Of a DNA stretch of 64,000 nucleotides, positions 5,626 through 44,409 are shown one piece after another; within the stretch, counting starts at the first letter, position 1; every line of letters starts with the position of its first letter. The stretch is from a virus (taxonomy: Duplodnaviria > Heunggongvirae > Uroviricota > Caudoviricetes), in IMG/VR virus record IMGVR_UViG_3300032167_000069. One strand, written 5' to 3'. A model generated the notes under the pieces. That model worked only from the letters and a program-made list of their open reading frames with translations, was not told where the DNA came from and ran no database searches. A program made the position numbers and the translations under genes.

Positions 5626-6528
5626 TTAATGTGCTTCTCTATCGCACTCATGCAACATCATAATGTCATCATAAAACTGCTCGCCCAACAACTTCTTATA
5701 ACGTTTCTTTGTTTTTTCGAGAACCCAAAAATACGGAGCCATATGCCACTGTATATATGCGGCTCTTGATAAAACTTCTAAAGTATTTGAAACGCCACCC
5801 TGTTCAAACAAACTCATATATGCTGAAACGTGATGATGTTCATAATAATGTGCGACTCCATCTTTAAACGATTGTGTGTAAACCTTACCAATATCGTGTA
5901 ATAATGCAGCCTCTTTTAAGCTATCTACAAAAGTTGAACCACACATTATCTTATAGCAGTCATACATATGTTCACCGAGCGAAAGGCTGTGATGTGGATT
6001 CTTTTGGTCAAAGTCATATAACAATGAAGTTTTGTTAATCAAACCTTCAATATTATTTCCTGCACAATATTCGTCTGGATAACATAATTGAATATCATTC
6101 CAACCCTCATACCAATATGGTGTATAAAAAGCTCTGACCATTTTCCATATTACTTCTTTATCAACGACCCTGCTTCTCTGCTTTTGTCTATTGATACACT
6201 CTCTTATGGGTGTAGCCATTACAACAGCTATTGCTTTAAATTCAAATTTGCTTCTTAATTGTTCGAGCAACACCTTACGTCTTTTATAGTTAATGTTTGT
6301 TGCGTCATAGATTACAGACTTTCCTTGTCCTAATGCTGTAATCGTTCTTTTATACATTTCCTCGAAAACTTTAGTATTGTCAGTTTGGTCAGAAGCATCA
6401 CCAAACAATTCTTCTCTTATTGCATCCGAGGATAAAAGTATCGCATTATGTACCTTTGCAAGTTCCTTTGCTTTTTCTGTTTTCCCCGAACCCGGAAGAC
6501 CGACCATTTGAATAAACTTTAATTCCAC
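5626..6528 (-). CDS. Bifunctional P-loop polynucleotide-kinase-like / HD phosphohydrolase protein
   Basis: N-terminal GLPGSGKT Walker A and C-terminal HD motif (LHDIGK). This architecture is found in RNA end-healing enzymes. Confidence 0.55.
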   Translation of the reverse strand: MELKFIQMVGLPGSGKTEKAKELAKVHNAILLSSDAIREELFGDASDQTDNTKVFEEMYKRTITALGQGKSVIYDATNINYKRRKVLLEQLRSKFEFKAIAVVMATPIRECINRQKQRSRVVDKEVIWKMVRAFYTPYWYEGWNDIQLCYPDEYCAGNNIEGLINKTSLLYDFDQKNPHHSLSLGEHMYDCYKIMCGSTFVDSLKEAALLHDIGKVYTQSFKDGVAHYYEHHHVSAYMSLFEQGGVSNTLEVLSRAAYIQWHMAPYFWVLEKTKKRYKKLLGEQFYDDIMMLHECDREAH

Positions 6529-6531
6529 TTC

Positions 6532-7314
6532 CTACACCTCCAGTTCCATCAAAAACGACTTTTTCAACACGTTTATAAGAACATTGTTCATCAACTCCTC
6601 GACCTCGCCGTTAATAGCCAATGGCGTTTTGTTCATATACTCATTTTTCATTTCAATTGTTTCATCAAGCTTTTCTTTGGCTATTTTTCTTGCTTCGTCT
6701 AATGAATGACAACCACGTTTCACATCAATCAAATATTCAGATATTTCTGATTTTAAACACGCTTTATAAGTTTCTCCAGAAATGTATCTGCGTGTGAATT
6801 CGTGCATTCTTAATATGTGATGAAGTTGCTTTGGATCGTAACCATACTTCTGAATTTTCTCCACCAAAGTTGGATACGGATGTTCAAGGGCTTTATACTT
6901 CTCCATACTCATTCCAGCCATACAGTTGACAAATGCATAATTGTTATATCTTGCAATCAATTCTGCGTTATCAAGCATTGGCTGATATAAGGATTTGAAA
7001 GCTTCATTTATAAGGTTGTATTTTGTAAACAAAATTTCTACAAAATTAACATTCTGCTTTTTAAAGCACTCGAACATCAATCGAATATCTTTTAAATCAA
7101 TGTGTTCGTTGGATGGAAGTATAAGTGTAGTGCTTACGGGTTTCTTGTTAAGACAGAAATCTTCAAACGAGGGTAACACAATACATTTGGTGTCTATATC
7201 GCTCCCTTCATACTCCAATCCGTAGTTTTGAGAGCCTTGTAAGAATACGCCTAACACCTTATATCCCAAACCTTCGACATATTGGAAATCTTCATTTAAA
7301 CGTTTATGTATCAT
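6532..7314 (-). CDS. Pol-beta-superfamily nucleotidyltransferase
   Basis: The GS...YGLEYEGSDIDTKC pattern (GS x9-13 DxD). Confidence 0.45.
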   Translation of the reverse strand: MIHKRLNEDFQYVEGLGYKVLGVFLQGSQNYGLEYEGSDIDTKCIVLPSFEDFCLNKKPVSTTLILPSNEHIDLKDIRLMFECFKKQNVNFVEILFTKYNLINEAFKSLYQPMLDNAELIARYNNYAFVNCMAGMSMEKYKALEHPYPTLVEKIQKYGYDPKQLHHILRMHEFTRRYISGETYKACLKSEISEYLIDVKRGCHSLDEARKIAKEKLDETIEMKNEYMNKTPLAINGEVEELMNNVLINVLKKSFLMELEV

Positions 7315-7318
7315 ACAA

Positions 7319-7639
7319 CTACTCCTCTCGTAGTTCGCCTTTCAGATAAAGCGATTGTTTGTATCGCCTACATTCTCTTGTGGCTCTTGTTCTTTCTTCT
7401 TTGCTGCGTTGGAATTCTTTCCAGTTTTCTTTTCGGTATTGTTTAGCTCTTTCTGCACTTTCTGGATTTACAATAAGCAAAACAGTTTTCTTGCTTACCT
7501 CAAATCTTTGAGCTAATTTATTCAAACTCCAATTACCTGTTTCATATTCTTCTTTAATAAGTTGTTTCTGTTCGTCAGTTAATTTTCTTCTTCTGTCCTG
7601 AAGTCCACGCAACGGTATTGTTTCAGATTTGTATGGCAA
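7319..7639 (-). CDS. Small basic HTH DNA-binding protein
   Basis: LNKLAQRFEVSKKTV is HTH-like; the C-terminus is basic. Confidence 0.4.
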   Translation of the reverse strand: MPYKSETIPLRGLQDRRRKLTDEQKQLIKEEYETGNWSLNKLAQRFEVSKKTVLLIVNPESAERAKQYRKENWKEFQRSKEERTRATRECRRYKQSLYLKGELREE

Positions 7640-7675
7640 TTTTCTCTCTCCTATTTTTATTTTGTGAAATGCTCC

Positions 7676-7930
7676 CTACAGCTTAGATACGAAATTCTTA
7701 AACTCTTTAAGCTCATCCTTGCAAATCAAGATATCAAAATAACGATACTCTTTTCCTCTGATGATAAACCAAATACGCTTTAGCTTTTCCCAGAATACGT
7801 TTGTTTGTTTTGTGTAGAAGTTATCGCTTACAAGCTGTAAGGATAGTTCGGATTCTTCATTATCAGCTTTTAATACAACTCCGTTTCCGCAACCGCATTC
7901 ACAAAATATCACGTGTTCGTTCCTTTTCAT
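7676..7930 (-). CDS. Hypothetical protein with CxxC pairs
   Basis: ORF of 84 aa: CECGCGNG... Confidence 0.35.
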   Translation of the reverse strand: MKRNEHVIFCECGCGNGVVLKADNEESELSLQLVSDNFYTKQTNVFWEKLKRIWFIIRGKEYRYFDILICKDELKEFKNFVSKL

Positions 7931-16725: not shown

Positions 16726-18036
16726 CTATTCGTAATTTACTTCATTTTTGTCTGTTCTTAATGCAACAAATACTGGGAACTGCAAACTTTCTGCATTTGT
16801 CCTCTTATCTGTTGATATTTCCTTATATTTAACTTCGCACAACATTCCGATTAAGTCATCCTTTTGCTTCCAATACAGTTGTCGTTGTTCGTCTGAAAAA
16901 CCAGAGCCCACCTTTACCTCGTTTCCTTTGTAATCGAGAACAAGAGCCCCCAACGTGCCTGATAACCTGCCTCCGCCCTCTTCATATCCGATGATTGGCA
17001 AGTCCATAGTATAAAACCGTTTAACTTTTAATATGCCATTATGCCTACAGCACTTATACGGAACATCAAGATTAACCATCAACCCTTCTTTATCCTCTTC
17101 TACCATTTTGTTGAGATAATAATTAATCTTTTCCACATTGCTCCCGCTATATAATACTGGTAGCACTTTTACATCATCACCCAATCGGTGAAGGCGAGAT
17201 ATTTTCATCAAATGTGCTCTTCTAAGAGAATAATTCAACGTTCCTTTATTTGAGCAAAACTCGTCTGTTGGGATTACATCAAACATTGTAAAACAGATAT
17301 CAGATTTATCACCATCGGAGTTAATTATTCCTGTGGCAACTCTAAATGCTTCATTGTCGCTTAATTCTCCCTTGTTTTTTAATGTAAGTTCTCCATCATA
17401 AACCATATCGCCATCAAGACTTTTTAATACCCTGATGATATGATCGAGTCCCTCAAATGGCATTCCGCTTCTTGCAATAAGTTCACCGTTATAGTATGTT
17501 GCTCTCACACCATTTAGTTTCTGAGTAAGAGTAAACCAAGCACCGTCTTTAATCGGATATTTTTCTATTGGGTATGCTTGTTGAACTTCCCATTCCGGAA
17601 TTAAATCAGGAATTACCTTATTAACAGTTTTCGCAGTAATCCCAAGTTTCAAAGACTTGGAGAGAATTTTTATATAAAACACTCTTTCATCTTCTGTGCA
17701 TTTCTTAAATAAGAAAGAATGGATTAACTCTATGAGTGCACTATTCACACTTTTAAGTTTTGATAAATGATCACATAATTCAAAAATATCATCAAACGCA
17801 TCAACCTTACGTTCTACGACTGGACTTACAACTAATTTTTTGGCTATTTCTTTTGAAATGTTATATGTAAGCAGTGGATTTAATGTATAAAAGAGTAGTT
17901 TTATAAACATTTCATTATCTTTGTTGTTTGCGATAATTTCTTGTTTTTTAAGCATTCCTCTTGTGTCTTTCAGCTTATTGATTTGCTCAATAGCCTCTAA
18001 CATCTTTTGCATCAAATCACCCCTTATCGCATTCAT
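16726..18036 (-). CDS. ATP-dependent DNA ligase
   Basis: KLNGVRA is motif I (KxDG/NGxR); the 436-aa ORF is nucleotidyltransferase plus OB sized. Confidence 0.6.
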   Translation of the reverse strand: MNAIRGDLMQKMLEAIEQINKLKDTRGMLKKQEIIANNKDNEMFIKLLFYTLNPLLTYNISKEIAKKLVVSPVVERKVDAFDDIFELCDHLSKLKSVNSALIELIHSFLFKKCTEDERVFYIKILSKSLKLGITAKTVNKVIPDLIPEWEVQQAYPIEKYPIKDGAWFTLTQKLNGVRATYYNGELIARSGMPFEGLDHIIRVLKSLDGDMVYDGELTLKNKGELSDNEAFRVATGIINSDGDKSDICFTMFDVIPTDEFCSNKGTLNYSLRRAHLMKISRLHRLGDDVKVLPVLYSGSNVEKINYYLNKMVEEDKEGLMVNLDVPYKCCRHNGILKVKRFYTMDLPIIGYEEGGGRLSGTLGALVLDYKGNEVKVGSGFSDEQRQLYWKQKDDLIGMLCEVKYKEISTDKRTNAESLQFPVFVALRTDKNEVNYE

Positions 18037-29865: not shown

Positions 29866-29989
29866 CTCTTTTCTTGAATAACTCTACAATCTAAAATAAT
29901 AAATAATCCTGAAGAAGACCGGGCGGAGATGAGTTACCAGTATATTAACGGGTTGTTCTGGGTAAGTTTAAGTTCAGAAAGATTGAGTT

Positions 29990-30200
29990 ATGTTAACTAA
30001 TGGTGTCTGTTATGTGGATAACTGCTTGGTTTCTTCTGACTTATCCCACTCACCTTTCTTCCCCTCGCCGAGTTCATCGAGCTTCTTTACGTGCCCAGTG
30101 TGAACCGTGCAGTCACCTGCGGGTGCAGGGGAATTCTTTTCCGCCAGCAAAGTGTTACTTCGGCTGACAACACAAAGCGCCTGTAAAAACAAGACAATAC
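29990..30200 (-). ncRNA. Structured GC-rich ncRNA locus A. A paralog of the RT-adjacent ncRNA, sharing a conserved module of about 45 nt.
   Basis: On the plus strand at 30138-30185 it reads ttcttttccgccagcaaagtgttacttcggctgacaacacaaagc. Near-identical modules occur at 34216-34262 and 35150-35192. A GC-rich hairpin-rich unique segment follows. The region is ORF-poor, and the ORF 30010..30285 is just a translation of the repeat. Confidence 0.45.
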
Positions 30201-30211
30201 ATTGTAAAGTT

Positions 30212-30301
30212 TGGCGGAGAGTAGAGGACTCGAACCTCTGCCCCGGATAAACGGGGAACGGTTTAGCAAACCGTGGCAGTACCAACTATGCTTAACTCTC
30301 C
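30212..30301 (-). tRNA. tRNA-Ser (GCU)
   Basis: Acceptor ggagagt/actctcc, anticodon arm acggt-ttGCTaa-accgt, long variable arm, T-arm, CCA. Confidence 0.7.
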
Positions 30302-30463
30302 ATATTGGCTCTTAGGTCAGCCAGCCGCACATCTTAACCCGAAAAATACTGGGGTTGGAATTTGCTCCCAAACAGCAGACTATTGCGAACTTGTGGTCTG
30401 CCAGCACGACTCATTTAATTTCTCCTCTATAGGATGCGGCACAGTGACATAACTGTGCAGTAC

Positions 30464-30551
30464 TGGCGGAGGGTCAGAGACTCGAACTCTGAAGCCCTTG
30501 CGGACTCGGCAGTTTTCAAGACTGCTGCCTTACCAATTAGGCTAACCCTCC
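30464..30551 (-). tRNA. tRNA-Ser (UGA)
   Basis: Acceptor ggagggt/accctcc, anticodon loop ctTGAaa, long variable arm, CCA. Confidence 0.65.
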
Positions 30552-30716
30552 ATATGGAAGCTTCCCCCGTAGGGAGGTATTACCAACCCACTTGCAAGTT
30601 TGCTGCTTTTTTAATTTAACCCATCCTAAAGCACCTGAAACACTGGGCATCCCGTGAAACCTTTTTTGAGGTGTCACCCTCGGAGTGGAGTACGGGCAAC
30701 GACAATCTCTCCCGAC

Positions 30717-30792
30717 TGGTCTGAGTAGCAGGTCTCGAACCTGCGACCTCGTGTTCCCAAAACACGTGCTCTACCAACTGAGCTATACCCAG
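30717..30792 (-). tRNA. tRNA-Pro (UGG)
   Basis: Canonical D-arm gctcagttggtagagc, anticodon arm cgtgt-ttTGGga-acacg, T-arm gcagg-ttcgaga-cctgc, CCA. Confidence 0.75.
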
Positions 30793-30800
30793 ATATATAA

Positions 30801-30874
30801 GTGTAGACTGACGACTTGAACGTCACCCCTCGACTAACACGAGACTCAGTACTCCCAATTATACGAAGCCTACA
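30801..30874 (-). tRNA. tRNA-like element (degenerate; D and anticodon arms not resolved)
   Basis: T-arm tgacg-ttcaagt-cgtca. Acceptor tgtaggc/gtctaca with a G-U pair. Confidence 0.3.
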
Positions 30875-30877
30875 CTT

Positions 30878-30964
30878 TGGTGCCGCTGACCGGACTTGAA
30901 CCGGTACGGTATTACTACCGAGGGATTTTAAGTCCCTTGTGTCTGCCAATTCCACCACAACGGC
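30878..30964 (-). tRNA. tRNA-Leu (UAA)
   Basis: D-loop gtggaattggcagacac, anticodon arm aggga-cuUAAaa-ucccu, long variable arm, T-arm, CCA. Confidence 0.7.
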
Positions 30965-30967
30965 ATA

Positions 30968-31044
30968 TGGTTGCGGGGGTGGGACTCGAACCCACGACCT
31001 CCAGCTTATGAGGCTGGCAAGCTGACCATCTGCTCTACCCCGCA
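30968..31044 (-). tRNA. tRNA-Met/fMet (CAU)
   Basis: Acceptor tgcgggg/ccccgca, anticodon loop ctCATaa, T-arm gtggg-ttcgagt-cccac, CCA. Confidence 0.7.
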
Positions 31045-31049
31045 ATATA

Positions 31050-31132
31050 TGGTGCCCGTAGCAGGACTCGAACCTGCACTCTCACGAACTGGTTCCTAAG
31101 ACCAGCGTGTCTGCCAATTCCACCATACGGGC
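31050..31132 (-). tRNA. tRNA-Leu (UAG)
   Basis: Acceptor gcccgta/tacgggc, anticodon arm ctggt-ctTAGga-accag, long variable arm, T-arm gcagg-ttcgagt-cctgc. Confidence 0.7.
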
Positions 31133-31166: not shown

Positions 31167-32795
31167 TTATTCGTCGTCTTCAACAACGTCAGTTTCTTCA
31201 ACTGCAATACCATAAGGCACGTCGCTTTCTTCGCACTCATAGTATCCTTCGTTAACTACTGCCTCATTATACTCTCCGCTTTCGGTTGCATCTAATGATG
31301 TATCATCTTTTGAACCACCAAAAATTCCCTTGAGAGGCTCAGCAAAACCCTTAACTAATTCCTGAATTTCGCCACTAAAAGACTGACCATTTAACGCCTT
31401 GTTCTCAACATCAAGCTTCTTCATCATACTGGGAATGCTGGAAAGTGTGTCAATTAAAACGTTTCCAGTTGCACCCTGAGCACTGCTACCACCGATATTT
31501 ACGAATTCTGCATTCTTACCGATGTCAGCCATAATCTGGGCTGTCTTTGTTGCAATTTCAATACGAGCATTAGCTTCAATCTTTAAACGCTCAATCTCAA
31601 AGTTAACCTTGTCATTTCCGGCACGAGCTTCAGCAAGAGCTTTTTCACCTTCGGCTTTTGCAAACAACATAGCCTTTTCTGCTTCAGCTTCCGCAGCACC
31701 CTTTTTGGCAATAATCTCAGCTTCAGTTTCACCCTCAACTTTAATTCTGTTAGCATTTGCCCTCGCTTCCTCTTCGATAGCTTTTGCCTTACCTTTTGCC
31801 ACCTGCTCCATAACCTTAGCTTCCGCCTCTGCGTTGATTGTGGCAACTCGTGCTTCCTCTTCAGCCTTGATTTCTGCCCTTACTCTCTCAGCCTCAGCCT
31901 TTGTTTTGATAACTTCTTTCTCTTTTACAGCCGCAAGATTAGCCTGTTCCTGTCTTACAACAGCCACACGACCTTCCTGTTCTGCAATTTCCTGCAACCT
32001 TACAGTTCTCTGGAGTTCACCAGCGATTTCAGCATCCGCATTTGCCTTGTCTGTTTCAGCCTTAAACTCTGCCTTTTTCAAACTGTTATCTCTGTTCTTT
32101 TCAGCAATCTGAAGCTCAGTATCGAGTTCGCTTTGTTTTGCAGCCTTTTCAGATTCAGCATTCTGCTGTCTAATCTGCTGATTTGCAGTAGCTTTTACTT
32201 TTTCGGCTTCTTTTCTCTTTTCTTCACGGTCAATCGCTGCGATATCATCATAATATCCATACTTATCCGTAATATCCTGAATGTTAAGCGATACAAGCTC
32301 AAGACCCATATCTGTCAATTCATCACTTACAGATTCAACAATTGCTTCCTTAAATGTTTCTTTGTCGTTCTGTACCTGTTCAGGTGTCATACTTGCAACA
32401 ACACTTCTTACAGAACCCATAAGCGTGAGCTTAACATCCTCAATAATACCTCTCTGTCCTCTTTCCTTAAACGAAACAATCGCTTTCTTTAATACATCGA
32501 GGTCTTTTGTGTTAGGTCTAATCTGAGCTGTCCAGTCAACGATAATCGGCACAGATGTTTTTGTCTTAATCTCATCTCCGTCAGTTGGAACTGTTAACAT
32601 ACACAAATCAAAGTATGATGCTTTTCTGAAAATCGGGATAACGAAGCTACCGCCAGAAACCTTGATTTTAGGCTCTTTTCCGCCTGTGATAATTAACGCT
32701 TTGTCAACATCTGCAACTTTGTAGATGCAACAAAGAAAAATAATAAGTGCCGCAAGAATACCAAGTGAAATTCCACCGTAAATTAAAAACTGCAT
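31167..32795 (-). CDS. SPFH/band-7 (flotillin-like) membrane protein with a long Ala/Glu-rich coiled coil
   Basis: An N-terminal TM helix, then an SPFH-like core, then an EA-rich coiled-coil repeat region and an acidic tail. It lies directly downstream of the RT on the same strand. Confidence 0.55.
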   Translation of the reverse strand: MQFLIYGGISLGILAALIIFLCCIYKVADVDKALIITGGKEPKIKVSGGSFVIPIFRKASYFDLCMLTVPTDGDEIKTKTSVPIIVDWTAQIRPNTKDLDVLKKAIVSFKERGQRGIIEDVKLTLMGSVRSVVASMTPEQVQNDKETFKEAIVESVSDELTDMGLELVSLNIQDITDKYGYYDDIAAIDREEKRKEAEKVKATANQQIRQQNAESEKAAKQSELDTELQIAEKNRDNSLKKAEFKAETDKANADAEIAGELQRTVRLQEIAEQEGRVAVVRQEQANLAAVKEKEVIKTKAEAERVRAEIKAEEEARVATINAEAEAKVMEQVAKGKAKAIEEEARANANRIKVEGETEAEIIAKKGAAEAEAEKAMLFAKAEGEKALAEARAGNDKVNFEIERLKIEANARIEIATKTAQIMADIGKNAEFVNIGGSSAQGATGNVLIDTLSSIPSMMKKLDVENKALNGQSFSGEIQELVKGFAEPLKGIFGGSKDDTSLDATESGEYNEAVVNEGYYECEESDVPYGIAVEETDVVEDDE

Positions 32796-32864: not shown

Positions 32865-34019
32865 TCACGATAAATCCCCCTTTATTAGCTTTTCTATGTC
32901 TGCGCCAAACTTCTGGTTATTATGAGAAATAACATAGTTTATATAATCTGGCTCAATCATTCTATAATAGGAAATAAGCCCAGCAAATACTTGTACGTCG
33001 TGCCTATCCCAATTAACGTTTTTCTTTTTGTCGCAAATATAATTGCAACACATAGCTTTGAATGCTTTTTTCTTTTGATGACCAATGGTTATCTCGTTAT
33101 CTTTGTTAAGCATAACACCCAAATTCCAGTTCCGACCAGCGGATGAACCGTATCTCGTTTTTTCTTTTTTGATTGCAAATGGAGCATCAAATCTTTTCAG
33201 AACATCGAGAACATATTCCTGCACCGCTTTGTAATCAAAATTCACTTTTGATGAAATCAAAATATCATCAGCATATCGTGTGTAAACAAAATGCTCGTCC
33301 ATCTTCCTTAAATCATTACAAAGTTGATGGTCGATTGGAATCATCATAATATTGGTGATTGTCGGCGATATAGGTGTTCCCTGTGGCAAACCGCCGTTTA
33401 AAAAACAAAGACTCAAAGCTCTTTTTAAGGCTTCGAGTCCATTTCTTCTTTTCACTATTTCACTAAACGGGAATATTTTTGAAAACATTGATAACACAAA
33501 CTCCTCTGTTGTGCTACCAAAAAAGTCCGAGAAATCAAGTTTTGCGAACCATTTACTTTCGTTCTGCTGATGTCTCTTAATTGAGTCAATTGTGCATCTA
33601 CCTTTTACATATGCAAAAGCAGATGTATGATACAATGCAAACATATTCTTTTCAAAAATAGTTTTCAAATTACGCAATGCATTCATCAATTCAGGTACAG
33701 GTGCATTAATTTCTCTCAAACCGCCACTTTTCTTTGGTATATGGAACGTTTCATACAGCGACTTCCTATCTACCTCAAATAAATTTGCATATTGAGAATT
33801 AAACTGTTCAAGAGCATAAATCATTGCGTTAAAATTGAATTTATCAAGAAATTTTTCGTTTAACTGCTCTCTGTAATGTGTTCTTGTGTTTGTTACATTG
33901 GGCACAATCATTCTTGATACATCAACCGCACCCGCCAGAATATCATCTAATGATAACTGATAATATATTGGCGATTGTTGAATTGTTACATAAGGCATAC
34001 TAATTCTCCTTTCGTACAT
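32865..34019 (-). CDS. Reverse transcriptase, retron/Abi-like type (not DGR type)
   Basis: IPKKSGGLREINAP (RT motifs 1/2), AKLDFSDFFGS (motif 3), GLPQGTPISP (motif 4), YTRYADDILISS (motif 5, YADD). KTRYGSS...NLGVMLN...IGHQKKKAF follows the pattern of the retron region after YADD. AYVKGRCTIDSIKRH sits at the NAxxH position. At 384 aa it has no maturase or endonuclease domain. Confidence 0.75.
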   Translation of the reverse strand: MYERRISMPYVTIQQSPIYYQLSLDDILAGAVDVSRMIVPNVTNTRTHYREQLNEKFLDKFNFNAMIYALEQFNSQYANLFEVDRKSLYETFHIPKKSGGLREINAPVPELMNALRNLKTIFEKNMFALYHTSAFAYVKGRCTIDSIKRHQQNESKWFAKLDFSDFFGSTTEEFVLSMFSKIFPFSEIVKRRNGLEALKRALSLCFLNGGLPQGTPISPTITNIMMIPIDHQLCNDLRKMDEHFVYTRYADDILISSKVNFDYKAVQEYVLDVLKRFDAPFAIKKEKTRYGSSAGRNWNLGVMLNKDNEITIGHQKKKAFKAMCCNYICDKKKNVNWDRHDVQVFAGLISYYRMIEPDYINYVISHNNQKFGADIEKLIKGDLS

Positions 34020-34059
34020 ACTGTAATCTACAAGATATATAAGCGTCTATGCAGCACGA

Positions 34060-34290
34060 GATGCTAAGCTTTTGCTGGTAACTTGGTCATCAGTGAGATG
34101 AGAGTTCATCTGATGAAAACCCAGTATTTATGCGGTATTTCTCTATTGATGGATTTGGGCAGACCTGTCGGGAAGCGTAAGCCACGGCTGTGGGTGATTG
34201 CCATCCTGAGCTGTCTCCCTGTGTTTTTCTCCAGCAAAGTGTTACTTTGGCTTATAACACAAAGCATCTGAAAACTCAGATTATTCATTA
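34060..34290 (-). ncRNA. Structured GC-rich ncRNA locus B, immediately upstream of the RT start (retron msr/msd-like position)
   Basis: Conserved module at 34216-34262. Inverted repeats cttttgctgg (34069-34078) and ccagcaaag (34221-34229) bracket about 160 nt. Several GC hairpins are present. The ORF 34106..34288 is a translation of the repeat. Confidence 0.5.
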
Positions 34291-34305
34291 CAAGTATGTT
34301 AATAT

Positions 34306-34545
34306 TTATTCATAACATTCATCTAAATCCTCATTGTCTATATTCACCTCTGAGTTGTCTTGTTCTACGTGAATATAGCAATAGGAATCTCCGCATATTG
34401 CAATTTTTGCTTCTGGCGGATAATTATTTAATTGTTCGATTAACTGTTTTACAGTTGTGTTTGGCAAGAAAACTTTTCTGTTTGCATCATACATATCATC
34501 TCTCCTAAATTTCATCAATATCGCAAGTCCATTGACGCCATTCAA
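34306..34545 (-). CDS. Hypothetical small protein
   Basis: 79 aa, between ncRNA loci C and B. Confidence 0.35.
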   Translation of the reverse strand: MNGVNGLAILMKFRRDDMYDANRKVFLPNTTVKQLIEQLNNYPPEAKIAICGDSYCYIHVEQDNSEVNIDNEDLDECYE

Positions 34546-34873
34546 ATCTCAAAAACTTCTGAATAGCTTCTTCGAGCGAATCAGCCTCGATAACTTTAGT
34601 CCACATATGGCTACCTATCAAAACTTCATCGTATCTTTTAGGTTCATCGCATACTACAATATCGCCGATGCGTTTCTCTGGAGTGTAACAACCTTTAGTT
34701 TCAGCGGTATAATATGCAATTAGGCGAGTGTTTAAGTAAAATTCACTTCCATAATATCCACAGAAACTTCCACGTCCATCAGTTTTGCACTGTTCAAACA
34801 GCCCAATTAAACTGTTTTCATATGCAACCTTTTTAACAGAGTCGTCATAAAACTTATTTACATAAAACTTCAT
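34505..34873 (-). CDS. Hypothetical protein
   Basis: 122 aa. Confidence 0.4.
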   Translation of the reverse strand: MKFYVNKFYDDSVKKVAYENSLIGLFEQCKTDGRGSFCGYYGSEFYLNTRLIAYYTAETKGCYTPEKRIGDIVVCDEPKRYDEVLIGSHMWTKVIEADSLEEAIQKFLRFEWRQWTCDIDEI

Positions 34874-35039
34874 TGAAAATACGCTCCTTTACATATAAAA
34901 TCAGTCTTTTATAAACACCTACGATCAAACATTATAAAATACAATCTTGAGGAAATCCGGATACCTTCGTCGGAACCACTTCAGATATATAAATTATAAA
35001 TTAAAGTAGGGATTTGTCTATGAAAAGTGTTGATAAATT

Positions 35040-35222
35040 GAGAATTTATCGACATAAGGACTTGACAAAGCACGCAATGACCTGTAGTGGAGGTGGTAGC
35101 ACCCGGCATCGGGCTCTGGAGGCGTCATCGCCGTCCCCTTCTTTTCGCCTATCAAAATATCACTTCGGCTGACAACACAAAGCATTTGAAATTAATCAAA
35201 TAATGCATCGTAGGTGTTTATG
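35040..35222 (-). ncRNA. Structured GC-rich ncRNA locus C, immediately 3' of the CLec-like gene stop. Shares the conserved module.
   Basis: cttttcgcctatcaaaatatcacttcggctgacaacacaaagc at 35150-35192, then a unique GC-rich hairpin segment. It shares an 11-nt identity (cccgatgccgg) with the VR-like region of the upstream gene. Confidence 0.45.
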
Positions 35223-36128: not shown

Positions 36129-36800
36129 TTAAAAAGCATCGACAGTATGACCAAAAGCATCAATTAAAATCAACTTACTGATACTGCCACCTTTTGCAAA
36201 ATTTATAAAATTAGATACACCGTGGGCAACAATCATTCTAACCGTCGGAACAACAGAAAGAGTCATATTACAAGCTGACACAGGTGTTTCGGCTTTTGCT
36301 TCTTCGTGAGTAAAAGCCATAGATTTAAGGAAATCTTCAACCATCTTCTTATTCTTCCAGTCCGCAGCATAATGCTGAGCGTCTGTAAGTCTCATACGGA
36401 AATCGAACATAGCTTTTACATAAGGATTGTCCTTGCAACTTTCCGCAATTTCACGTCTCAAATCAATGTTATCAACACAGAGGAAAACATAGCCAGACAA
36501 CTTCTGCCCTACATATCCTTTGTCAACAAGCTTGATTTCCTTTTTTACTTCAGGGTTGATTTCGTAAAGCATATCTGCCAATGCCTCAACCTTTGTTTTT
36601 CCGATATCAACCTGTCTGAACATCTGATTCGCAATGTTGTGTGGTTCTACGTGGTCAAAATCATAAAGAGTTATATTTGTGAGACCAAATCTGACAAGAT
36701 TTTCTGCGACCGTAGAGCCGATTGCACCACAGCCTATAATGTGTAATCTTTCTTTGCACATTTCAGGCTGAAAAAATTCATATGATTTTGCTAAATCCAT
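36129..36800 (-). CDS. ThiF/MoeB-family E1-like adenylyltransferase
   Basis: IIGCGAIGS is a Rossmann nucleotide loop. LYDFDHVEPHNIANQ fits E1. At 223 aa it is a minimal E1. Confidence 0.6.
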   Translation of the reverse strand: MDLAKSYEFFQPEMCKERLHIIGCGAIGSTVAENLVRFGLTNITLYDFDHVEPHNIANQMFRQVDIGKTKVEALADMLYEINPEVKKEIKLVDKGYVGQKLSGYVFLCVDNIDLRREIAESCKDNPYVKAMFDFRMRLTDAQHYAADWKNKKMVEDFLKSMAFTHEEAKAETPVSACNMTLSVVPTVRMIVAHGVSNFINFAKGGSISKLILIDAFGHTVDAF

Positions 36801-36812
36801 ACCCTCAACTCC

Positions 36813-37703
36813 TTATGTATCAAATCTGTCCTGACGATAGATATCATAAGCCTCATCTTCCATATCCTCAGAACCTCTGTTTTTCCAACCACTACCAACA
36901 TTAGATTTACCCTGCTGGTGTTGGTTTACTTTAGGCTTTTCCTTATCTTTTCCGGTGCTCGGTGTGTTATTTGCAGGCTTTGTACTACCGTTATACCCAC
37001 CATATCCACCGTTATAACCGCCATAGCTTTTTCCACCATAACTATACCCAGTTACAACCGTTGTCTTCTTTTTAACCTGCTCTTTTGCTTCCTCAACAAA
37101 AGCATCAAGGTCGTATCCGTCACCAAGAATGCCATACGAAATATCCTTGTTTTCATACAAAGTGTTGTTCTGGAGATCGTAAATCTTTGTGTTATTCTCC
37201 AGTTTCTTGTTCCAAATCATAAAAATATAATACATATCATCTGTAAGCTGAGCGAGAATGCTCTCCTGATGATTTGTATCAACCGCAGACGGTGTGGTGC
37301 CGAAATTTACGTGGCTATGACCCTGCATAATGATGTGATTAAAACGTTCATCTTCAATGTTGTCCATAATCCATTTAGCATACGCTTCTGTGTCCATTTC
37401 AACCGTAGAGCCCGTTACCGTCTGAGGATACACAACAAGGTCTGAAATAAGGAAGTTTGCACCCTCAATGCGCTCACCGACACCGTGCCAAGCAACCTCT
37501 GAATCAAAAGACATAAGTAATGCAATCATTTTTGAATAAGCTTCCGGTGTAAAGAAGATTGTTGCTTTTTCATCTTCTTTATATGTAAAATTCTTATTGT
37601 AGCTGATTTTTCCATCAGCCATTTTTGTTCCAGCAAGTGTTTTTGCAAACTCTTCAAGTGCCTGTTTCTTTAACTCTTCTGTGAGTTTAATAGGTTTTGC
37701 CAT
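36813..37703 (-). CDS. JAMM/JAB (MPN+) metallopeptidase with a Gly/Tyr-rich C-terminal tail
   Basis: HSHVNFGTTPSAVD carries the HxH...S..D JAMM motif; an upstream E is present. The tail is GYSYGGKSYGGYNGGYGGYNG. Confidence 0.6.
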   Translation of the reverse strand: MAKPIKLTEELKKQALEEFAKTLAGTKMADGKISYNKNFTYKEDEKATIFFTPEAYSKMIALLMSFDSEVAWHGVGERIEGANFLISDLVVYPQTVTGSTVEMDTEAYAKWIMDNIEDERFNHIIMQGHSHVNFGTTPSAVDTNHQESILAQLTDDMYYIFMIWNKKLENNTKIYDLQNNTLYENKDISYGILGDGYDLDAFVEEAKEQVKKKTTVVTGYSYGGKSYGGYNGGYGGYNGSTKPANNTPSTGKDKEKPKVNQHQQGKSNVGSGWKNRGSEDMEDEAYDIYRQDRFDT

Positions 37704-39166
37704 TATTTTTCGACCTCCTGTGCTTCATTTTCCTGTTCCTGACTTAAAAGCCAGTTATATGCTTCTGTAGGCGTGCAAGATGTTCCATCGGGAAGCTGAA
37801 TTACAGCCTTACAACTTGATGTGAACAATCTACCCATAAATGGTGCAACCGTCTGTGAGCCCTCTGACAAATTGAGGTTTTTCGCAGATGATACACACTG
37901 TTCTATAGCAGCGATATAATCGCCTTTTGCTAAAAGCTGGTCTATGAGCGGTCTGTTATTTCCGATACAAGCATGGAAATCAAAATGAGGATTTGTTAAA
38001 TAGTCATTATATTCCATCGGATAATCATATCTCTGTATCGTATCAACTCTACCACGCATATCTAAATCGTAGTACGCACGTACTTTAATCTTTAATAATG
38101 GTTCATCGCCAAAAACAGCATCGAGCAATTTCTTTCGAGCTGCTTCTTCGTAAAAAGCTTCCGCAGAAACATTATAACCAGTAAACAAATAGCTTCTCGA
38201 ATTTTTCGTCATACGCTCGTACATCTCAGGATCATAATTTTCAATAGTTGTACCAACAATGATTTTTATGTGCTGATTGTCAACATATATTGGGTTAATA
38301 TGTCTGTTACAAACAAAGTAATCAACAATTTCCGAATCATTGCCAGCTTCTTTTATCTGATAAGCCAAGCCACTCTCTTTAATACGAAGATTATCCATAT
38401 TTTCAATCATATTCTGATAATCTGCCATTAAACGTTCCATTCTTGACTGCTGATTTGCAATTTCATTCTTTACAACATCCAACTGTCTCTGTTTTGCTCT
38501 GGCTTCAAACCCGCCGAGCAATTTCTGTATCTGTGCAGTTCTGAAGTCATATTTTGATGCAAACTCCTCAATAATTCTCTCATATTCAGGAGCATAACGG
38601 TTGGTGAGTGCTTTTACGAGAGCCTTTTCTTCTTCATTGATAGGATTCTCTGCGAAATACCACGGCACCAACCTTGAGATAAGCGACTGTATAAAGTGCC
38701 AAATTCTTGTATTAAGACACGCAACAAATATTGCGACGCTTTTCTCTTCCTCATTTATATAAAAACGAACATTTGCCTGCTTTGCAACGAATACGTGAAG
38801 GTCTTCCAATTCTGTAAATTTAGGATAGACCTGTGTAAAATGACTTTCAATCTTATTGAAAGATGTAGTAATACTGCTTTCTGTACCATTGAAACCGCAA
38901 ACAAAGATCGTGTTATTGCCTATGCCATCTGACAGAATTCTTACTATATCCTCATCAGAATAATCTCTCAATGAGGAATCTCTGTCATTTCTAACCTTAA
39001 CATTTAATGAAATGTGTTCCTTTTTCTTCATTCTTGGAGCTAACAAAGCTCTGAGTGTCGCAAGAAACGAATTATCACCGTTAAAAGTTGCGCCCACAAT
39101 GTTAGGAAACATTTCGTTTGCAATTTCGTTTGTCAGAGTCAGTCCATATAATTCTTTATTAAACAT
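37703..39166 (-). CDS. Hypothetical 487-aa protein in the Ubl-E1-JAB operon (possible E2-like or accessory; unassigned)
   Basis: ORF translationally coupled to the JAB gene; no motif recognised. Confidence 0.45.
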   Translation of the reverse strand: MFNKELYGLTLTNEIANEMFPNIVGATFNGDNSFLATLRALLAPRMKKKEHISLNVKVRNDRDSSLRDYSDEDIVRILSDGIGNNTIFVCGFNGTESSITTSFNKIESHFTQVYPKFTELEDLHVFVAKQANVRFYINEEEKSVAIFVACLNTRIWHFIQSLISRLVPWYFAENPINEEEKALVKALTNRYAPEYERIIEEFASKYDFRTAQIQKLLGGFEARAKQRQLDVVKNEIANQQSRMERLMADYQNMIENMDNLRIKESGLAYQIKEAGNDSEIVDYFVCNRHINPIYVDNQHIKIIVGTTIENYDPEMYERMTKNSRSYLFTGYNVSAEAFYEEAARKKLLDAVFGDEPLLKIKVRAYYDLDMRGRVDTIQRYDYPMEYNDYLTNPHFDFHACIGNNRPLIDQLLAKGDYIAAIEQCVSSAKNLNLSEGSQTVAPFMGRLFTSSCKAVIQLPDGTSCTPTEAYNWLLSQEQENEAQEVEK

Positions 39167-40401: not shown

Positions 40402-41964
40402 TTACCCCCTCAAAACATCTTCGATTGGCTGGTATCTTTCCGAGTTGATTGTTTCAAGTAAACATTCATACGGGTCTGTCTTTCCGCTCATAACCATTTT
40501 ACAAATATTTACCGAAAATCCACTCACGAGAGCAACGCCCAGCTTGTTACTTCTCACCGGAATTGTTCCCGTTCTTGAATTAACATTCCAGAAAACAAGC
40601 CTTGGCAATTCATAGCCAACCTGCTTATATCTTGCACCAATTACATCGAACAACTTATCGTTTTTAATTGCATAGTCGCAATTATATCTTCCGCCGTGTC
40701 CAACAGTTGCACAACCATCAAATTCCATATCAGAAATAATCAGGATGTTCTTCGGCATATCTTCCTGTGCCATATTGTTATTAACCGCAGTTTTCAAAAT
40801 TAAGTCAAATACTGCTTCGATATTTGTATTGGCAACTTCGTTATGCTGAGCCGCAATAGCCAATTTATCTCTCAGGCTATTAGCGTGTCCAAAGTCAACC
40901 AATTGTGGACGTTCAGAGAAAGTAATATATTTATCTTTTAGGCACCCCGAAGACCTTTCTGCGAAATATACAGCCAAGCTGTTAGCAACTTCAAGAGCCG
41001 TTACATTTGTGCCACCTACTGTTGTTCTCATAGAACCAGAACCATCAGCTACAACAATTGTGTTTCCGCAACCCTCAACCATATCAGGAAGATTGTTCCA
41101 GAGAGCTTCAACAGAAGCATCATAATCCTTTAACTGATTTCCATAGTATCCGTAACTACCAGCATAATACTTGTGAACAATGTCGTGCGGATAAAGTGTT
41201 GCCGCATTGATTTTTGCTTCGCCATTTTCAATTTTGCCGAGAAACTCTCTTCTTCTTTCCTCGTCGTTTCTTAAAAAGGCATTATTATAAATAAGGTTTG
41301 CACGTGACGGAACCGTTTCATAGTTGATTTCGCCCCACTGCTTTGCAGACATCTTAATTTCGACAACATCAATGTGTTTGCGAAGCTTACTCAAAAGCTT
41401 ACGATAGTCAGCCTCTTTGATATCTAAGTGCTTACGAATTATTTTTGAAAGTTTTTTACTTTCCTCTGAAGACGCATTTGCTGACGGAAGCCATTTTGCT
41501 AACAATGAGATTGGCTTGCCATTTTCGCACCCCTCGACGTCAGCTTTAAGCTGTTTCTTTATGTATTCAATAACCGCACCGCAAAGTTTTTCGTTTTCAA
41601 GGAAAACCCACAAATCATCGAATCTTCCGTATTCTGCAACAAGCGGAATAAGCTTTTCGGCAAAATCGGATTCGTATTCAGCAACAAATTTCATCGCCGT
41701 TCTGAACAATCTACGCTCACCCAAACCACCACGGACATCTCTTGCAAAGAAAAGCCATTTCATAGCAAGGATTTTATCCTCAAGAAATGCTGCCGCAAAC
41801 TTCTTTGCAATACCCTCTTCGCTTGCTGAACGCAACGATGCAACCGCAAAATTGATGTCAAGCAAATTCTTGCCGGTTGTTTTATAACCAAGTGCACCGT
41901 TTTCTGTTGTGGATGTGTTGAAATCTTCAAGTGCAGTTTCTTTTAACTTCTCAATAAATGACAT
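40402..41964 (-). CDS. Helical N-domain + C-terminal vWA (MIDAS) protein; Ro60/Rsr-like (TROVE-like + vWA) architecture
   Basis: A C-terminal vWA domain with a MIDAS motif (TIVVADGSGSMRTT ... ILIISDMEFD). An N-terminal helical domain of about 330 aa. Total of 520 aa, matching Ro60/Rsr domain order and size. TROVE identity was not verified. Confidence 0.45.
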   Translation of the reverse strand: MSFIEKLKETALEDFNTSTTENGALGYKTTGKNLLDINFAVASLRSASEEGIAKKFAAAFLEDKILAMKWLFFARDVRGGLGERRLFRTAMKFVAEYESDFAEKLIPLVAEYGRFDDLWVFLENEKLCGAVIEYIKKQLKADVEGCENGKPISLLAKWLPSANASSEESKKLSKIIRKHLDIKEADYRKLLSKLRKHIDVVEIKMSAKQWGEINYETVPSRANLIYNNAFLRNDEERRREFLGKIENGEAKINAATLYPHDIVHKYYAGSYGYYGNQLKDYDASVEALWNNLPDMVEGCGNTIVVADGSGSMRTTVGGTNVTALEVANSLAVYFAERSSGCLKDKYITFSERPQLVDFGHANSLRDKLAIAAQHNEVANTNIEAVFDLILKTAVNNNMAQEDMPKNILIISDMEFDGCATVGHGGRYNCDYAIKNDKLFDVIGARYKQVGYELPRLVFWNVNSRTGTIPVRSNKLGVALVSGFSVNICKMVMSGKTDPYECLLETINSERYQPIEDVLRG

Positions 41965-42076
41965 AAAAAATCCTCCTTTTGATTTATATAAAATCCCAAG
42001 ACGGATTTCTGAATAATAGATTAAAAGTCTACTCCAAAAATGATTGCTGTTACCGTCTTTAGGATTTTTTATTATA

Positions 42077-42224
42077 GGTGGGGATGGTAGGATTTGAACC
42101 TACGAAATCTTCTTGATTTACTGTTTTATGAAAAAGATTGCTGTTGGTGTCAAACTAAACACCTTTCATTAGACAATTTCCTTCAGCCACTTGGATACAT
42201 CCCCAAATATTTAATTATCATCCT
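42077..42224 (-). ncRNA. Oversized tRNA-like ncRNA (about 148 nt) with class-II D-arm, T-arm and acceptor, plus an internal insert carrying the AACAGCAAT motif
   Basis: Acceptor ggggatg/catcccc, D-arm tcc-aagtggctgaa-gga, variable hairpin aaatc-aagaa-gattt, T-arm gtagg-ttcaaat-cctac. The insert contains the ggtgtttagtttgacacc hairpin followed by aacagcaat. Confidence 0.5.
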
Positions 42225-42449: not shown

Positions 42450-42571
42450 TGGTGAGGGTGGCAGGACTCGAACCTACGACACACGGCTCCCAAAGCATTA
42501 AGAATATTGCTGTAAGCGTTTATCACTAAACACATTCTTATACGTTGCTCTGCCAACTGAGCTACACCCTC
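42450..42571 (-). ncRNA. Oversized tRNA-like ncRNA (122 nt) with the GTGATAAAC...ACAGCAAT insert
   Basis: Acceptor gagggtg/caccctc, canonical D-arm gctcagttggcagagc, T-arm, encoded CCA. A 45-nt structured insert (helix taagaat/attctta; hairpin gttta-gtga-taaac; acagcaat) replaces a normal anticodon arm. Confidence 0.5.
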
Positions 42572-43776: not shown

Positions 43777-44167
43777 AAAAAGCTTTTATAATCCCAAATT
43801 ATATGCATTAAATATTGCTGCGTGTGTCTTTAAAAGGTATATATCAATCCGCAAATGCGGTTATTGTTGAATGTTGGGTAAGTTTTTGCTTACCCGACGG
43901 AATTTCACCGTCCCATTACTCTAAAACCCGACCACCCATTACATAATCTACGAAAAGTTATGTAAAATGCCTTTGAGTAAATTGAACTTCACAAAAATTA
44001 GAAACGAGAGGCTAAAAAGTTTCAGAAAGGAGATGCTACTTCTTAGACCAAAAGAAGTATTTGCGCTGTGTTATGCCAAAAACTGACAGCAAAGCAAAAT
44101 CAAAAAATTTGTAAATTTGATAATATGTTTTATTATGTATTTGCTGTAAGCCTCTCTTATATGTTGA

Positions 44168-44286
44168 GCGGCGGGTGAGAATCGAACTCACGACACATAG
44201 TTTGGATTCTTGAAAAAATCGCTGTTAGTGAAGTTTATCACTCCACATTTTTTCGACTATTATTCTACCATCTGAACTACCGCCGC
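44168..44286 (-). ncRNA. Oversized tRNA-like ncRNA (119 nt) with the GTGATAAAC...ACAGCGAT insert
   Basis: Acceptor gcggcgg/ccgccgc, D-arm gttcagatggtagaat, T-arm gtgag-ttcgatt-ctcac. The insert has an 8-bp helix gaaaaaat/attttttc, then hairpin gtggag-tgataaa-cttcac, then aacagcgat. Confidence 0.5.
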
Positions 44287-44290
44287 ATAA

Positions 44291-44409
44291 GGTGCCCAGA
44301 GTTGGACTCGAACCAACGACCACGGAGTTACCAGCTCAATATAAAGTTGCAGTTTAAGGCTTTTTCAAACCTCAATTATTACGTGCTCTACCGACTGAGC
44401 TATCTGGGC
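44291..44409 (-). ncRNA. Oversized tRNA-like ncRNA (119 nt) with the GAAA-tetraloop hairpin plus AACTGCAAC insert
   Basis: Acceptor gcccaga/tctgggc, canonical D-arm gctcagtcggtagagc, T-arm gttgg-ttcgagt-ccaac. The insert is aggttt-gaaa-aagcct followed by aaactgcaac. Confidence 0.5.

What the first reader, a model, noticed from the sequence alone, without database searches (positions are those of the whole stretch)
32865..34290. Retron-type reverse transcriptase in a phage, with a structured ncRNA immediately upstream
The 384-aa RT carries the PQG and YADD motifs, and the region after YADD follows the retron-like KT.Y.S..G pattern. It lacks the IGxxxSQ/YMDD signature of DGR RTs and has no maturase domain. 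The 230 nt directly upstream are ORF-free and GC-rich in an AT-rich genome. They are bracketed by the inverted repeats cttttgctgg and ccagcaaag, which is the geometry of a retron msr/msd locus. RTs of this kind are normally host defence genes, so a phage-borne copy beside an SPFH protein and a Ubl/E1/JAB module is unusual.
Basis: partly seen in the sequence, partly recalled or inferred. Interest (0 to 1): 0.85.

Follow-up and report, generated by a model that had tools for sequence, protein, structure and literature searches.

The report
Phage retron-like RT with ncRNA array
A large gut phage carries a retron-type reverse transcriptase flanked by five retron-like non-coding RNA units rather than one; relatives keep this arrangement next to an E1/JAB gene module, so it looks like a core phage device, not a borrowed host defence gene.

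Summary
ORF 32865-33998(-) is an intact retron-clade RT. Its true start is probably ATG 33998 (377 aa), not 34019. The conserved closing helix is a1/a2 (34287-34293 with 34021-34027). It covaries strongly across 66 distinct units and abuts an invariant G, as at a retron branch point. Two covarying hairpins and a GUAACA motif follow.

The element is not single. The window holds five units on the RT strand: C, B, A, D and E. Relatives carry one unit upstream and one to three directly downstream of the RT. All 164 model hits in 64 related phage loci lie on the RT strand. Unit interiors are unrelated to each other and evolve fast.

The RT family is large and sits on contigs assigned to gut Clostridia. 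In 59 of 60 loci it lies just downstream of a p487-JAB-E1 block. SPFH is a neighbour in 0 of 60.

Best reading: a phage-core retron-like system in which one RT serves an array of msr/msd-like templates. cDNA synthesis and biological role are untested. It is a new variant of a known kind.

The parts
32865..33998 (-). Retron-clade reverse transcriptase, 377 aa. The 384-aa reading from ATG 34019 is less likely. It has a family-specific N-terminal extension of about 75 aa.
34021..34293 (-). ncRNA unit B, directly upstream of the RT (273 nt from a1 to a2)
   Evidence: CM R1 68.8 bits, E 9e-12; the MFE fold closes a1/a2; the architecture is conserved in 60 upstream regions
34287..34293 (-). a1 arm of unit B (UUGUAAU)
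34286..34286 (-). Invariant G immediately 3' of a1; candidate 2'-OH priming (branching) G
   Evidence: invariant column G14 in 66 distinct units
34266..34281 (-). Hairpin P1 (AUCUGAGUUUUCAGAU)
   Evidence: its sequence differs between units but always forms a hairpin; 94% of 51 distinct 5' domains fold into exactly two hairpins
34244..34265 (-). Hairpin P2 (GCUUUG...CAAAGU)
   Evidence: 9 pairs, 6 with compensatory changes
34240..34245 (-). Conserved GUAACA motif after P2 (its first two bases overlap the 3' end of P2)
   Evidence: A51, G52 and T53 are invariant and the following bases near-invariant in A1; retained in the distant clade L067
   Evidence: not conserved
34028..34032 (-). Conserved UGUAG just 5' of a2. 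Its G is nearly invariant. It is the predicted first template bases.
34021..34027 (-). a2 arm of unit B (AUUACAG)
34911..35221 (-). ncRNA unit C. It is closed by a perfect 15-bp a1/a2 helix (35207-35221 with 34911-34925); the G is at 35206.
   Evidence: (I6)
29880..30211 (-). ncRNA unit A, with G at 30200. It corresponds to the first unit downstream of the RT in relatives and is displaced here by the SPFH gene and six tRNAs.
28667..28907 (-). ncRNA unit D, with G at 28899. Its interior is a long imperfect hairpin like a retron msd.
   Evidence: interior z -11.8
28012..28254 (-). ncRNA unit E, with G at 28246. It has an 8-bp perfect a1/a2 helix and a long-hairpin interior.
   Evidence: partial CM hit; (z -6.7)
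36129..36800 (-). ThiF/E1-like adenylating enzyme. It is a conserved linked neighbour; a functional link is inferred only.
36813..37703 (-). JAB/JAMM protein with an intact HxHx7SxxD motif. Conserved linked neighbour.
37703..39166 (-). 487-aa protein of unknown fold (p487). Conserved linked neighbour.

Best explanation
This is a phage-encoded, retron-like reverse-transcription system in which one RT serves a set of msr/msd-like ncRNAs.

Proposed mechanism.
- Each unit is 217-372 nt (five in this window) and is transcribed on the RT strand.
- The unit folds so that its ends pair (a1/a2). This places an invariant G at the base of the helix, opposite the first template bases (UGUAG).
- The RT recognises the conserved 5' scaffold: P1, P2 and GUAACA.
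- The RT primes from the 2'-OH of that G and copies the variable interior into a branched RNA-DNA molecule like msDNA. The predicted cDNA 5' end is CTACA.
- Because the interiors differ, the phage would make several different cDNAs at once.

Status of each step.
- Shown here: RT clade and intact catalytic motifs; conservation, covariation and strand of the RNA units; their exclusive co-location with the RT; the conserved gene neighbourhood.
- Inferred: RT binding, self-priming at the G, cDNA synthesis and its extent.

Biological role. The element is a vertically inherited core cassette of a large lineage of gut Clostridia phages and has no recognisable retron toxin or effector. I therefore favour a role serving the phage, in which the nucleic-acid products act during infection in counter-defence or competition between phages. 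I judge a classical abortive-infection role less likely. The role is the weakest part of the account.
For: RT.
- All retron RT profiles match, the best being type II-A, in all 41 sampled family members.
- St85-family is the best NCBIfam model in all 41.
- The full-length alignment to the solved retron Ec83/Ec78 RTs has E about 5e-21.
- YADD, PQG and the motif-A Asp are invariant in 53 sequences.

RNA.
- The a1/a2 helix lies next to an invariant G in 132 unique units. Its position is 240-360 nt downstream, and shuffle p<=0.01 for most units.
- 83% of helix cells are paired, against 64% when shuffled and 30-40% when slid. All 13 pairs show compensatory changes, and 0 of 500 shuffles reach the observed value.
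- P2 covaries and P1 covaries.
- MFE folds of units A, B, C, D and E all close a1/a2.
- Units D and E have msd-like long hairpins.

Association.
- All 164 CM hits in the 64 RT loci lie on the RT strand, flanking the RT.
- The same layout occurs at 36-37% RT identity and in L181.
- In a search starting from the RNA motif, every true unit lay on an RT-bearing contig, 21 of 21.
- The window's five units lie within 28.0-35.3 kb of a 64-kb window.

Literature definition of retron geometry: PMC7736814.
Against: - No cDNA or transcript data exist.
- The strict retron signatures are altered. NAxxH reads (A/S/L)(V/I/L)KRH and VTG reads NLG. Only H and G are kept, although these are the most conserved residues according to PMC7736814.
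- The RT scores below the NCBIfam St85 cutoff, 181 against 235.
- There is no match to any Rfam family.
- The interior of the RT-adjacent unit B, and of units A and C, is not a stable long hairpin (z -0.9 to -1.8) and is A/C-rich.
- No known retron effector is adjacent.
- In the window each unit sits just upstream of a ribosome-binding site and ORF, which also fits a leader-RNA role.
Confidence: 0.58

Rival explanations
1. The units are substrates or partners of the RT, but the chemistry is not retron-like. Options include 3'-end or protein priming, template jumping or rolling-circle copying as in DRT2, or homopolymer or non-templated synthesis as in DRT9 or AbiK. In this case a1/a2 would only define a folded module.
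For: - The NAxxH and VTG hallmarks are altered.
- Most interiors are unstructured and A/C-rich rather than msd hairpins.
- The RT has an extra N-terminal region of about 75 aa that ordinary retron RTs lack.
- A terminal helix that brings the template ends together would also suit template jumping.
Against: - Similarity to UG/DRT and Abi RTs is far weaker than to retron RTs: Drt2 46 bits and Drt3a 43 bits against 181 bits.
- The invariant G sits exactly at the 3' end of a1, which is the retron signature.
- No stop-free frame spans the units, so a Neo-like concatemer gene is unsupported.
Confidence: 0.2
2. The units are RNA elements that do not depend on the RT. They could be leader, processing or stability modules, or stable small RNAs of the phage's RNA-gene island, which also holds tRNAs and tmRNA-like genes. 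The RT would merely share the neighbourhood.
For: - In the window every unit ends 10-25 nt before a ribosome-binding site and ORF.
- The units lie next to tRNA arrays and, in L001 and L003, tmRNA predictions.
- Units are up to 5 kb from the RT in this window.
Against: - In most relatives the units are packed head to tail with no ORF between them.
- One unit immediately precedes the RT in nearly all loci, including clades at 36-37% RT identity.
- No unit was found on a contig that lacks the RT.
- The geometry of a terminal helix plus an invariant G has no known leader-RNA counterpart.
Confidence: 0.14
3. The units are non-autonomous retro-mobile copies, like SINEs or the dispersed msr-msd repeats reported for Retron-Nex1. 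The RT would spread them, and a1/a2 would be terminal repeats.
For: - Copy number and position differ between relatives: five dispersed copies here against two or three in tandem elsewhere.
- Duplicated msr/msd copies without a nearby RT have a precedent in Nannocystis (PMC6868368).
Against: - Interiors of units in one genome share no similarity, so there has been no recent copying.
- The outer a1/a2 bases differ between copies yet stay complementary. That pattern indicates selection on RNA pairing, not transposase sites.
- The RT has no endonuclease or integrase domain.
- No target-site duplications were seen.
Confidence: 0.05
4. The RT is a diversity-generating retroelement RT or a group II intron RT.
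For: Both are common in gut phages and bacteria. The group II RT/maturase model gives a weak hit of 70.6 bits.
Against: - There is no IGxxxSQ motif.
- No template/variable repeat pair exists: unit interiors match nothing else in the window.
- There is no maturase domain, and the score is far below the cutoff of 300.
- No group II intron RNA was found by Rfam.
Confidence: 0.01

Closest known systems
Retrons of types II-A (St85/Sen2 family) and I-A (Ec78, Ec83)
   Same: - These are the closest RT profiles and solved structures.
- The ncRNA lies immediately upstream on the same strand.
- Terminal inverted repeats pair next to a conserved G.
- One to three hairpins follow in the msr-like part (definition in PMC7736814).
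   Different: - No NDT or ATPase/HNH effector is present.
- NAxxH and VTG are altered.
- The RT has an extra N-terminal region of about 75 aa.
- There are several ncRNA units per RT.
- Most interiors are not long hairpins.
- The element is carried as a core gene of a large phage, not on a bacterial defence island.
Retron-Eco3 (Ec73) on retronphage phiR73, and the Ec67/Ec86 retrons in 186-like prophages
   Same: A retron carried on a phage-like element (PMC6868368).
   Different: Those are sporadic cargo of temperate elements in Enterobacteria, each with a single msr-msd. Here the cassette is syntenic across a deep phage lineage (RT identity down to about 36%) and holds arrays of units.
Retron-Nex1 (Ne160) of Nannocystis exedens, and engineered 'multitrons' (retron arrays)
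   Same: More than one msr/msd copy per genome or per RT (PMC6868368; PMC10370050, listed).
   Different: The Nex1 copies are described as duplicates lying away from an RT, and multitrons are synthetic. Here the units are natural, tandem, mutually unrelated in their interiors and adjacent to the RT.
DRT2/DRT9-type defence RTs with dedicated ncRNA templates
   Same: An RT with a structured ncRNA encoded next to it that presumably serves as template.
   Different: The RT clade differs: Drt2 scores 46 bits and Drt3a 43 bits, both far below cutoff. No repeat-generating or homopolymer template features were seen, and no stop-free frame exists.

Membership tests
Retron | RT belongs to the retron/retron-like RT clade | tested here: met
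   All PADLOC retron RT models match; the best is RT_II-A at 3e-50, and this holds for 41 of 41 family members. The best PDB relatives are the retron Ec83/Ec78 RTs. It scores below the NCBIfam St85 trusted cutoff, 181 against 235, so it is a separate subfamily. No formal phylogeny was made.
Retron | Region X NAxxH motif between RT2 and RT3 | tested here: inconclusive
   The aligned position reads SIKRH here and (A/S/L)(V/I/L)KRH in 53 family sequences. H is invariant; N and A are replaced. The literature states that H is the most conserved residue and that two validated retrons lack the N.
Retron | Region Y VTG triplet in RT7 | tested here: inconclusive
   The aligned position reads N-L-G. G is invariant; V and T are replaced. 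G is the most conserved residue according to PMC7736814.
Retron | Contiguous ncRNA on the RT strand whose terminal inverted repeats (a1/a2) pair | tested here: met
Retron | Conserved G at the 3' end of a1 (branching G) | tested here: met
   A G is invariant at that position in 66 distinct units. Whether it acts as a branch point cannot be tested here.
Retron | msr part with one to three hairpins | tested here: met
   Two covarying hairpins, P1 and P2
Retron | msd part forming a long stable stem-loop | tested here: inconclusive
   Met in units D and E (z -11.8 and -6.7). Not met in B, A and C (z -0.9 to -1.8). Across the family the median z is -1.5.
Retron | Production of msDNA joined 2'-5' to the RNA | not testable with these tools
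   Needs nucleic-acid extraction or cDNA sequencing
Retron | Associated effector (tripartite system of a known type I-XIII) | tested here: not met
   PADLOC finds no retron effector among the neighbours, only E1- and JAB-like hits. SPFH is not conserved, 0 of 60.
Retron | Match to a curated Rfam RNA family | tested here: not met
   No Rfam hit on any unit, either at gathering threshold or at E<=5. Retron ncRNAs are very diverse, so this carries little weight.
Diversity-generating retroelement | DGR-type RT motif (IGxxxSQ) and a template/variable repeat pair | tested here: not met
   The motif is absent. No repeat of any unit interior occurs in the window.
Group II intron | RT with a maturase (X) domain inside an intron RNA | tested here: not met
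   TIGR04416 scores 70.6 bits against a cutoff of 300. No intron RNA was found by Rfam.
UG/DRT and Abi reverse transcriptases | Membership of the Drt2, Drt3, Drt4 or AbiA families | tested here: not met
   Drt2 scores 46 against 390 and Drt3a 43 against 200. AbiA and Drt4 match only 1-3 of 41 relatives, weakly.

The most novel reading that the evidence does not exclude
The RT and its ncRNA array may be one arm of a five-part phage cassette, p487 - JAMM/JAB protease - ThiF/E1 - ncRNA(s) - RT, that works as a single system. One possibility is that the E1/JAB pair conjugates or matures a protein under control of, or onto, the reverse-transcribed products. That would give a phage-encoded counter-defence or host-takeover device with no described counterpart. 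It would also be a natural multiplexed retron, with several unrelated cDNAs made by one RT.
Probability: 0.2. Interest if true: 0.9.

Novelty: new variant of a known kind. Interest (0 to 1): 0.78.

Why it matters
Retrons are understood as bacterial abortive-infection systems built from one ncRNA, one RT and a toxin. This case differs in three ways.

- A very large retron-like RT family is a syntenic core cassette of large gut Clostridia phages. It has 459 clusters at 50% identity with E<1e-30.
- It has no recognisable toxin.
- It carries natural arrays of two to five mutually unrelated msr/msd-like units.

If the units are reverse-transcribed, three consequences follow.

- It would show what a virus uses a retron for.
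- It would provide a natural precedent for multiplexed retron arrays, which are of interest for genome editing.
- It would supply a compact conserved RNA scaffold (a1-G-P1-P2-GUAACA) that tolerates arbitrary interiors of about 200 nt.

The strict linkage to an E1/JAB module raises the possibility of an undescribed combined system.

Tried and rejected
- Rfam, at gathering threshold and at E<=5, found nothing on the units.
- A Neo-like stop-free ORF in the units or their cDNA: none spans a unit.
- Homology of unit interiors to the rest of the window, to each other or to related loci, as expected for a DGR template/variable pair or for recombination donors: none.
- SPFH as a partner: 0 of 60 loci.
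- Function of p487: no Pfam, PHROG, PADLOC or PDB sequence hit. A confident AF2 model (pLDDT 91.6) has no significant PDB fold match.
- Promoter and terminator scan of 27.9-36.2 kb: not enriched over shuffles.
- A full-length consensus structure of the interiors by MAFFT and RNAalifold: the interiors are too divergent to align.
- Literature: no paper was found on phage retron arrays.
- One bioRxiv preprint (10.64898/2026.09.22.753630) mentions 'ncRNA array', reverse transcriptase and cDNA but could not be opened. Term counts suggest it barely mentions retrons or phages. When I searched for ThiF, JAB, ubiquitin and Clostridia it did not rank among the listed papers, so it probably mentions none of them. 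Overlap cannot be excluded.

Full report
**1. The observation**

ORF 32865..34019(-) of 384 aa is present. It matches Pfam RVT_1 at 1.9e-19. The translation shows LPQGTP, YADD and KTRYGSSAG. It has no IGxxxSQ and no maturase domain.

The probable start is ATG 33998, giving 377 aa. An AAAGGAG ribosome-binding site and the 3' arm of the RNA helix lie between 34019 and 33998. Called homologues are 377-378 aa.

The upstream 270 nt contain only mechanical 60-62 aa ORFs. Their GC is 0.42, and 0.48 in the interior, against 0.37 for the window.

The window is phage DNA. It encodes a terminase large subunit, an exonuclease, DNA and RNA ligases and NAMPT.

**2. The RT**

Profile evidence:
- Every PADLOC retron RT model matches, the best being RT_II-A at 3e-50.
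- NCBIfam gives retron_St85_RT at 181 bits, below its cutoff of 235.
- Other RT classes score far lower: group II 71 bits, Drt2 46, Drt3a 43.
- The best solved relatives are the retron Ec83 and Ec78 RTs, aligned over the whole RT at E about 5e-21.

Motifs, in 53 distinct family sequences:
- YADD, PQG and the motif-A Asp are invariant.
- The retron NAxxH position reads (A/S/L)(V/I/L)KRH.
- The VTG position reads N-L-G.
- Only H and G are kept. The literature calls these the most conserved residues of those motifs (PMC7736814).

Family size and distribution:
- There are 459 clusters at 50% identity with E<1e-30. The best 150 are 39-60% identical.
- All 41 sampled members hit the retron models best.
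- In a scan of one genome per species, full-length relatives at 40% identity or more, including the N-terminal extension of about 75 aa, lie mostly on MAG contigs labelled Clostridia from animal, termite and human guts. The labels include Oscillospiraceae, Lachnospiraceae, Defluviitaleaceae and Acutalibacteraceae.
- The next tier is ordinary bacterial retron RTs at 30% identity or less, matching residues 82-372 only.

**3. The RNA**

Upstream regions of 60 distinct relatives share one plan:
- a1, typically UGUAAY;
- an invariant G;
- a hairpin P1 of variable sequence;
- a hairpin P2;
- GUAACA(N)nUUG;
- a variable interior of about 200 nt;
- UGUAG;
- a2, then a ribosome-binding site and the RT.

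Support for each helix:
- P2 has 9 pairs, 6 with compensatory changes.
- 94% of 51 distinct 5' domains fold into exactly two hairpins, although the P1 sequences differ.
- In 132 unique units, the 7-15 nt just 5' of the G pair with a segment 240-360 nt downstream. Shuffle p<=0.01 for most.
- On 66 distinct end pairs, 83% of cells pair, against 64% when shuffled and 30-40% when slid. All 13 pairs show changes on both sides, and 0 of 500 shuffles reach the observed value.
- That alignment was anchored by complementarity, which favours the inner pairs. The a2 position is independently fixed by the conserved G/UGUAG motif and by the next unit or ribosome-binding site.

This matches the published retron geometry: the terminal repeats hybridise next to a conserved branching G, with one to three msr hairpins.

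It is not conserved in L001 and not supported as a class.

**4. An array, not a single RNA**

A covariance model of the 5' domain finds units in the window as follows.

| Unit | Coordinates (-) | CM score |
|---|---|---|
| B | 34231-34296 | 68.8 bits |
| A | 30144-30210 | 58.3 bits |
| C | 35149-35216 | 50.7 bits |
| D | 28823-28909 | 32.7 bits |
| E | 28176-28202 | partial hit |

Unit E has a perfect 8-bp a1/a2 helix.

In the 64 related loci the model gives 164 hits, all on the RT strand. Typically one lies upstream and one to three lie directly downstream of the RT. They are packed less than 10 nt apart. In L007, for example, U is 5659-5994, the RT 6001-7158, D1 7190-7463 and D2 7472-7774.

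The same layout holds at 36-37% RT identity and in L181.

In the reverse test I scanned IMG/VR for an RNA motif and filtered with the model. All 21 loci with true units are RT-bearing contigs.

Properties of the unit interiors:
- They share no similarity with each other, with the rest of the window or with relatives.
- They diverge several-fold faster than the RT gene: 79-87% identity where the RT is 95-98% identical at the nucleotide level.
- They begin GC-rich and continue A/C-rich and G-poor.
- In D and E they form very stable long hairpins, but in A, B and C they do not.

**5. Neighbourhood**

- p487, a JAB protein with an intact HxHx7SxxD motif, and a 223-aa ThiF/E1 lie upstream of the RT in 59 of 60 loci. 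The gap holds only a unit, or a unit plus a DUF6273 gene.
- The same block is present in 32 of 32 evaluable loci retrieved through E1, and in distant clades.
- SPFH is a neighbour in 0 of 60 loci.
- orf186, which follows unit A here, follows the first downstream unit in L001-L006 and L015. The SPFH gene and six tRNAs are therefore an insertion between the RT and unit A.
- All these loci belong to one phage lineage. Synteny alone does not prove a functional link.

**6. Interpretation**

The best-supported reading, at confidence about 0.58, is a phage-core retron-like system in which one RT uses several msr/msd-like RNAs.

The alternatives I weigh are:
- non-retron chemistry on the same RNAs, 0.2;
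- RT-independent RNA elements, 0.14;
- retro-mobile copies, 0.05;
- DGR or group II intron, about 0.01.

What has not been shown is any cDNA, the branch point or the biological role. Phage-borne retrons (Ec73 on phiR73) and duplicated msr/msd copies (Nex1) have precedents. Conserved tandem arrays of unrelated units in a core phage cassette next to E1/JAB do not appear in the literature I could search. One unreadable preprint remains a caveat.

Noticed in passing
window 42076-42204, 42453-42571, 44167-44286, 44293-44409 (all -), also 25176-25283 (-); gene 40402-41964 (-): Several tRNA-like RNAs of 108-129 nt are present. The two whose alignments I inspected (44293-44409 and 44167-44286) have intact acceptor, D and T arms and a 53-57 nt insert at the anticodon loop. 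Rfam tRNA scores are 34-49 bits, but ARAGORN does not call them. Four of them flank a DUF2828/DUF7788 protein that PHROGs annotates as RNA-binding. The arrangement recalls Ro60 with Y-RNA-like (YrlA) partners, or intron-bearing tRNAs.
   Followed up: partly
window 31167-32795 (-): An SPFH/flotillin-like protein (Band_7 at 7e-20; FloT-like at 169 bits, below cutoff) lies directly downstream of the RT. It is absent from all 60 related loci that have downstream sequence. It is probably a recent insertion together with the tRNA array.
   Followed up: yes
window 30212-31132 (-) and 25071-25495 (-); L001 2543-2918; L003 10214-10632: Six tRNA genes lie between the SPFH gene and unit A, and two more lie at 25 kb. 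In relatives, tRNA arrays follow the ncRNA units. ARAGORN also predicts tmRNA genes in L001 and L003.
   Followed up: partly
window 20355-21842 (-), 27454-27984 (-), 3956-5035 (-), 16726-18036 (-): The phage encodes NAMPT (phrog_448 at 9e-157), an isochorismatase-family protein that may be a nicotinamidase, an RNA ligase and an ATP-dependent DNA ligase. Together these suggest NAD+ salvage and RNA repair functions, of the kind phages use against NAD-depleting or tRNA-cleaving defences.
   Followed up: no
window 36813-37703 (-) and 36129-36800 (-): The JAB protein has an intact JAMM motif (HSHVNFGTTPSAVD) and a Gly/Tyr-rich low-complexity tail. The E1 is only 223 aa: an adenylation domain with no E2-like part, and weak similarity to TcdA and ThiF. 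I identified no Ubl gene.
   Followed up: partly
window 37703-39166 (-): The 487-aa protein is conserved with the cassette. Its AF2 model is confident (pLDDT 91.6, with a long central helix) but has no significant PDB fold match and no family hit. Invariant His, Glu, Asn and Cys residues hint at an enzyme.
   Followed up: partly
window 34993-35020 (-): The strongest sigma-70-like match in the region (TAGACA-16-TATAAT, 11 of 12) lies inside the AT-rich 3' part of unit C, upstream of ORF 34505-34873.
   Followed up: no
L181 (GCA_948693885.1, contig CAPRNP010000001.1, 223 kb): The whole cassette occurs on a 223-kb contig: p487, a 303-aa gene at the JAB position, ThiF, a unit, the RT and two more units. 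An identical p487 protein is labelled Acutalibacter muris by a source. This may offer a route to a culturable host.
   Followed up: partly
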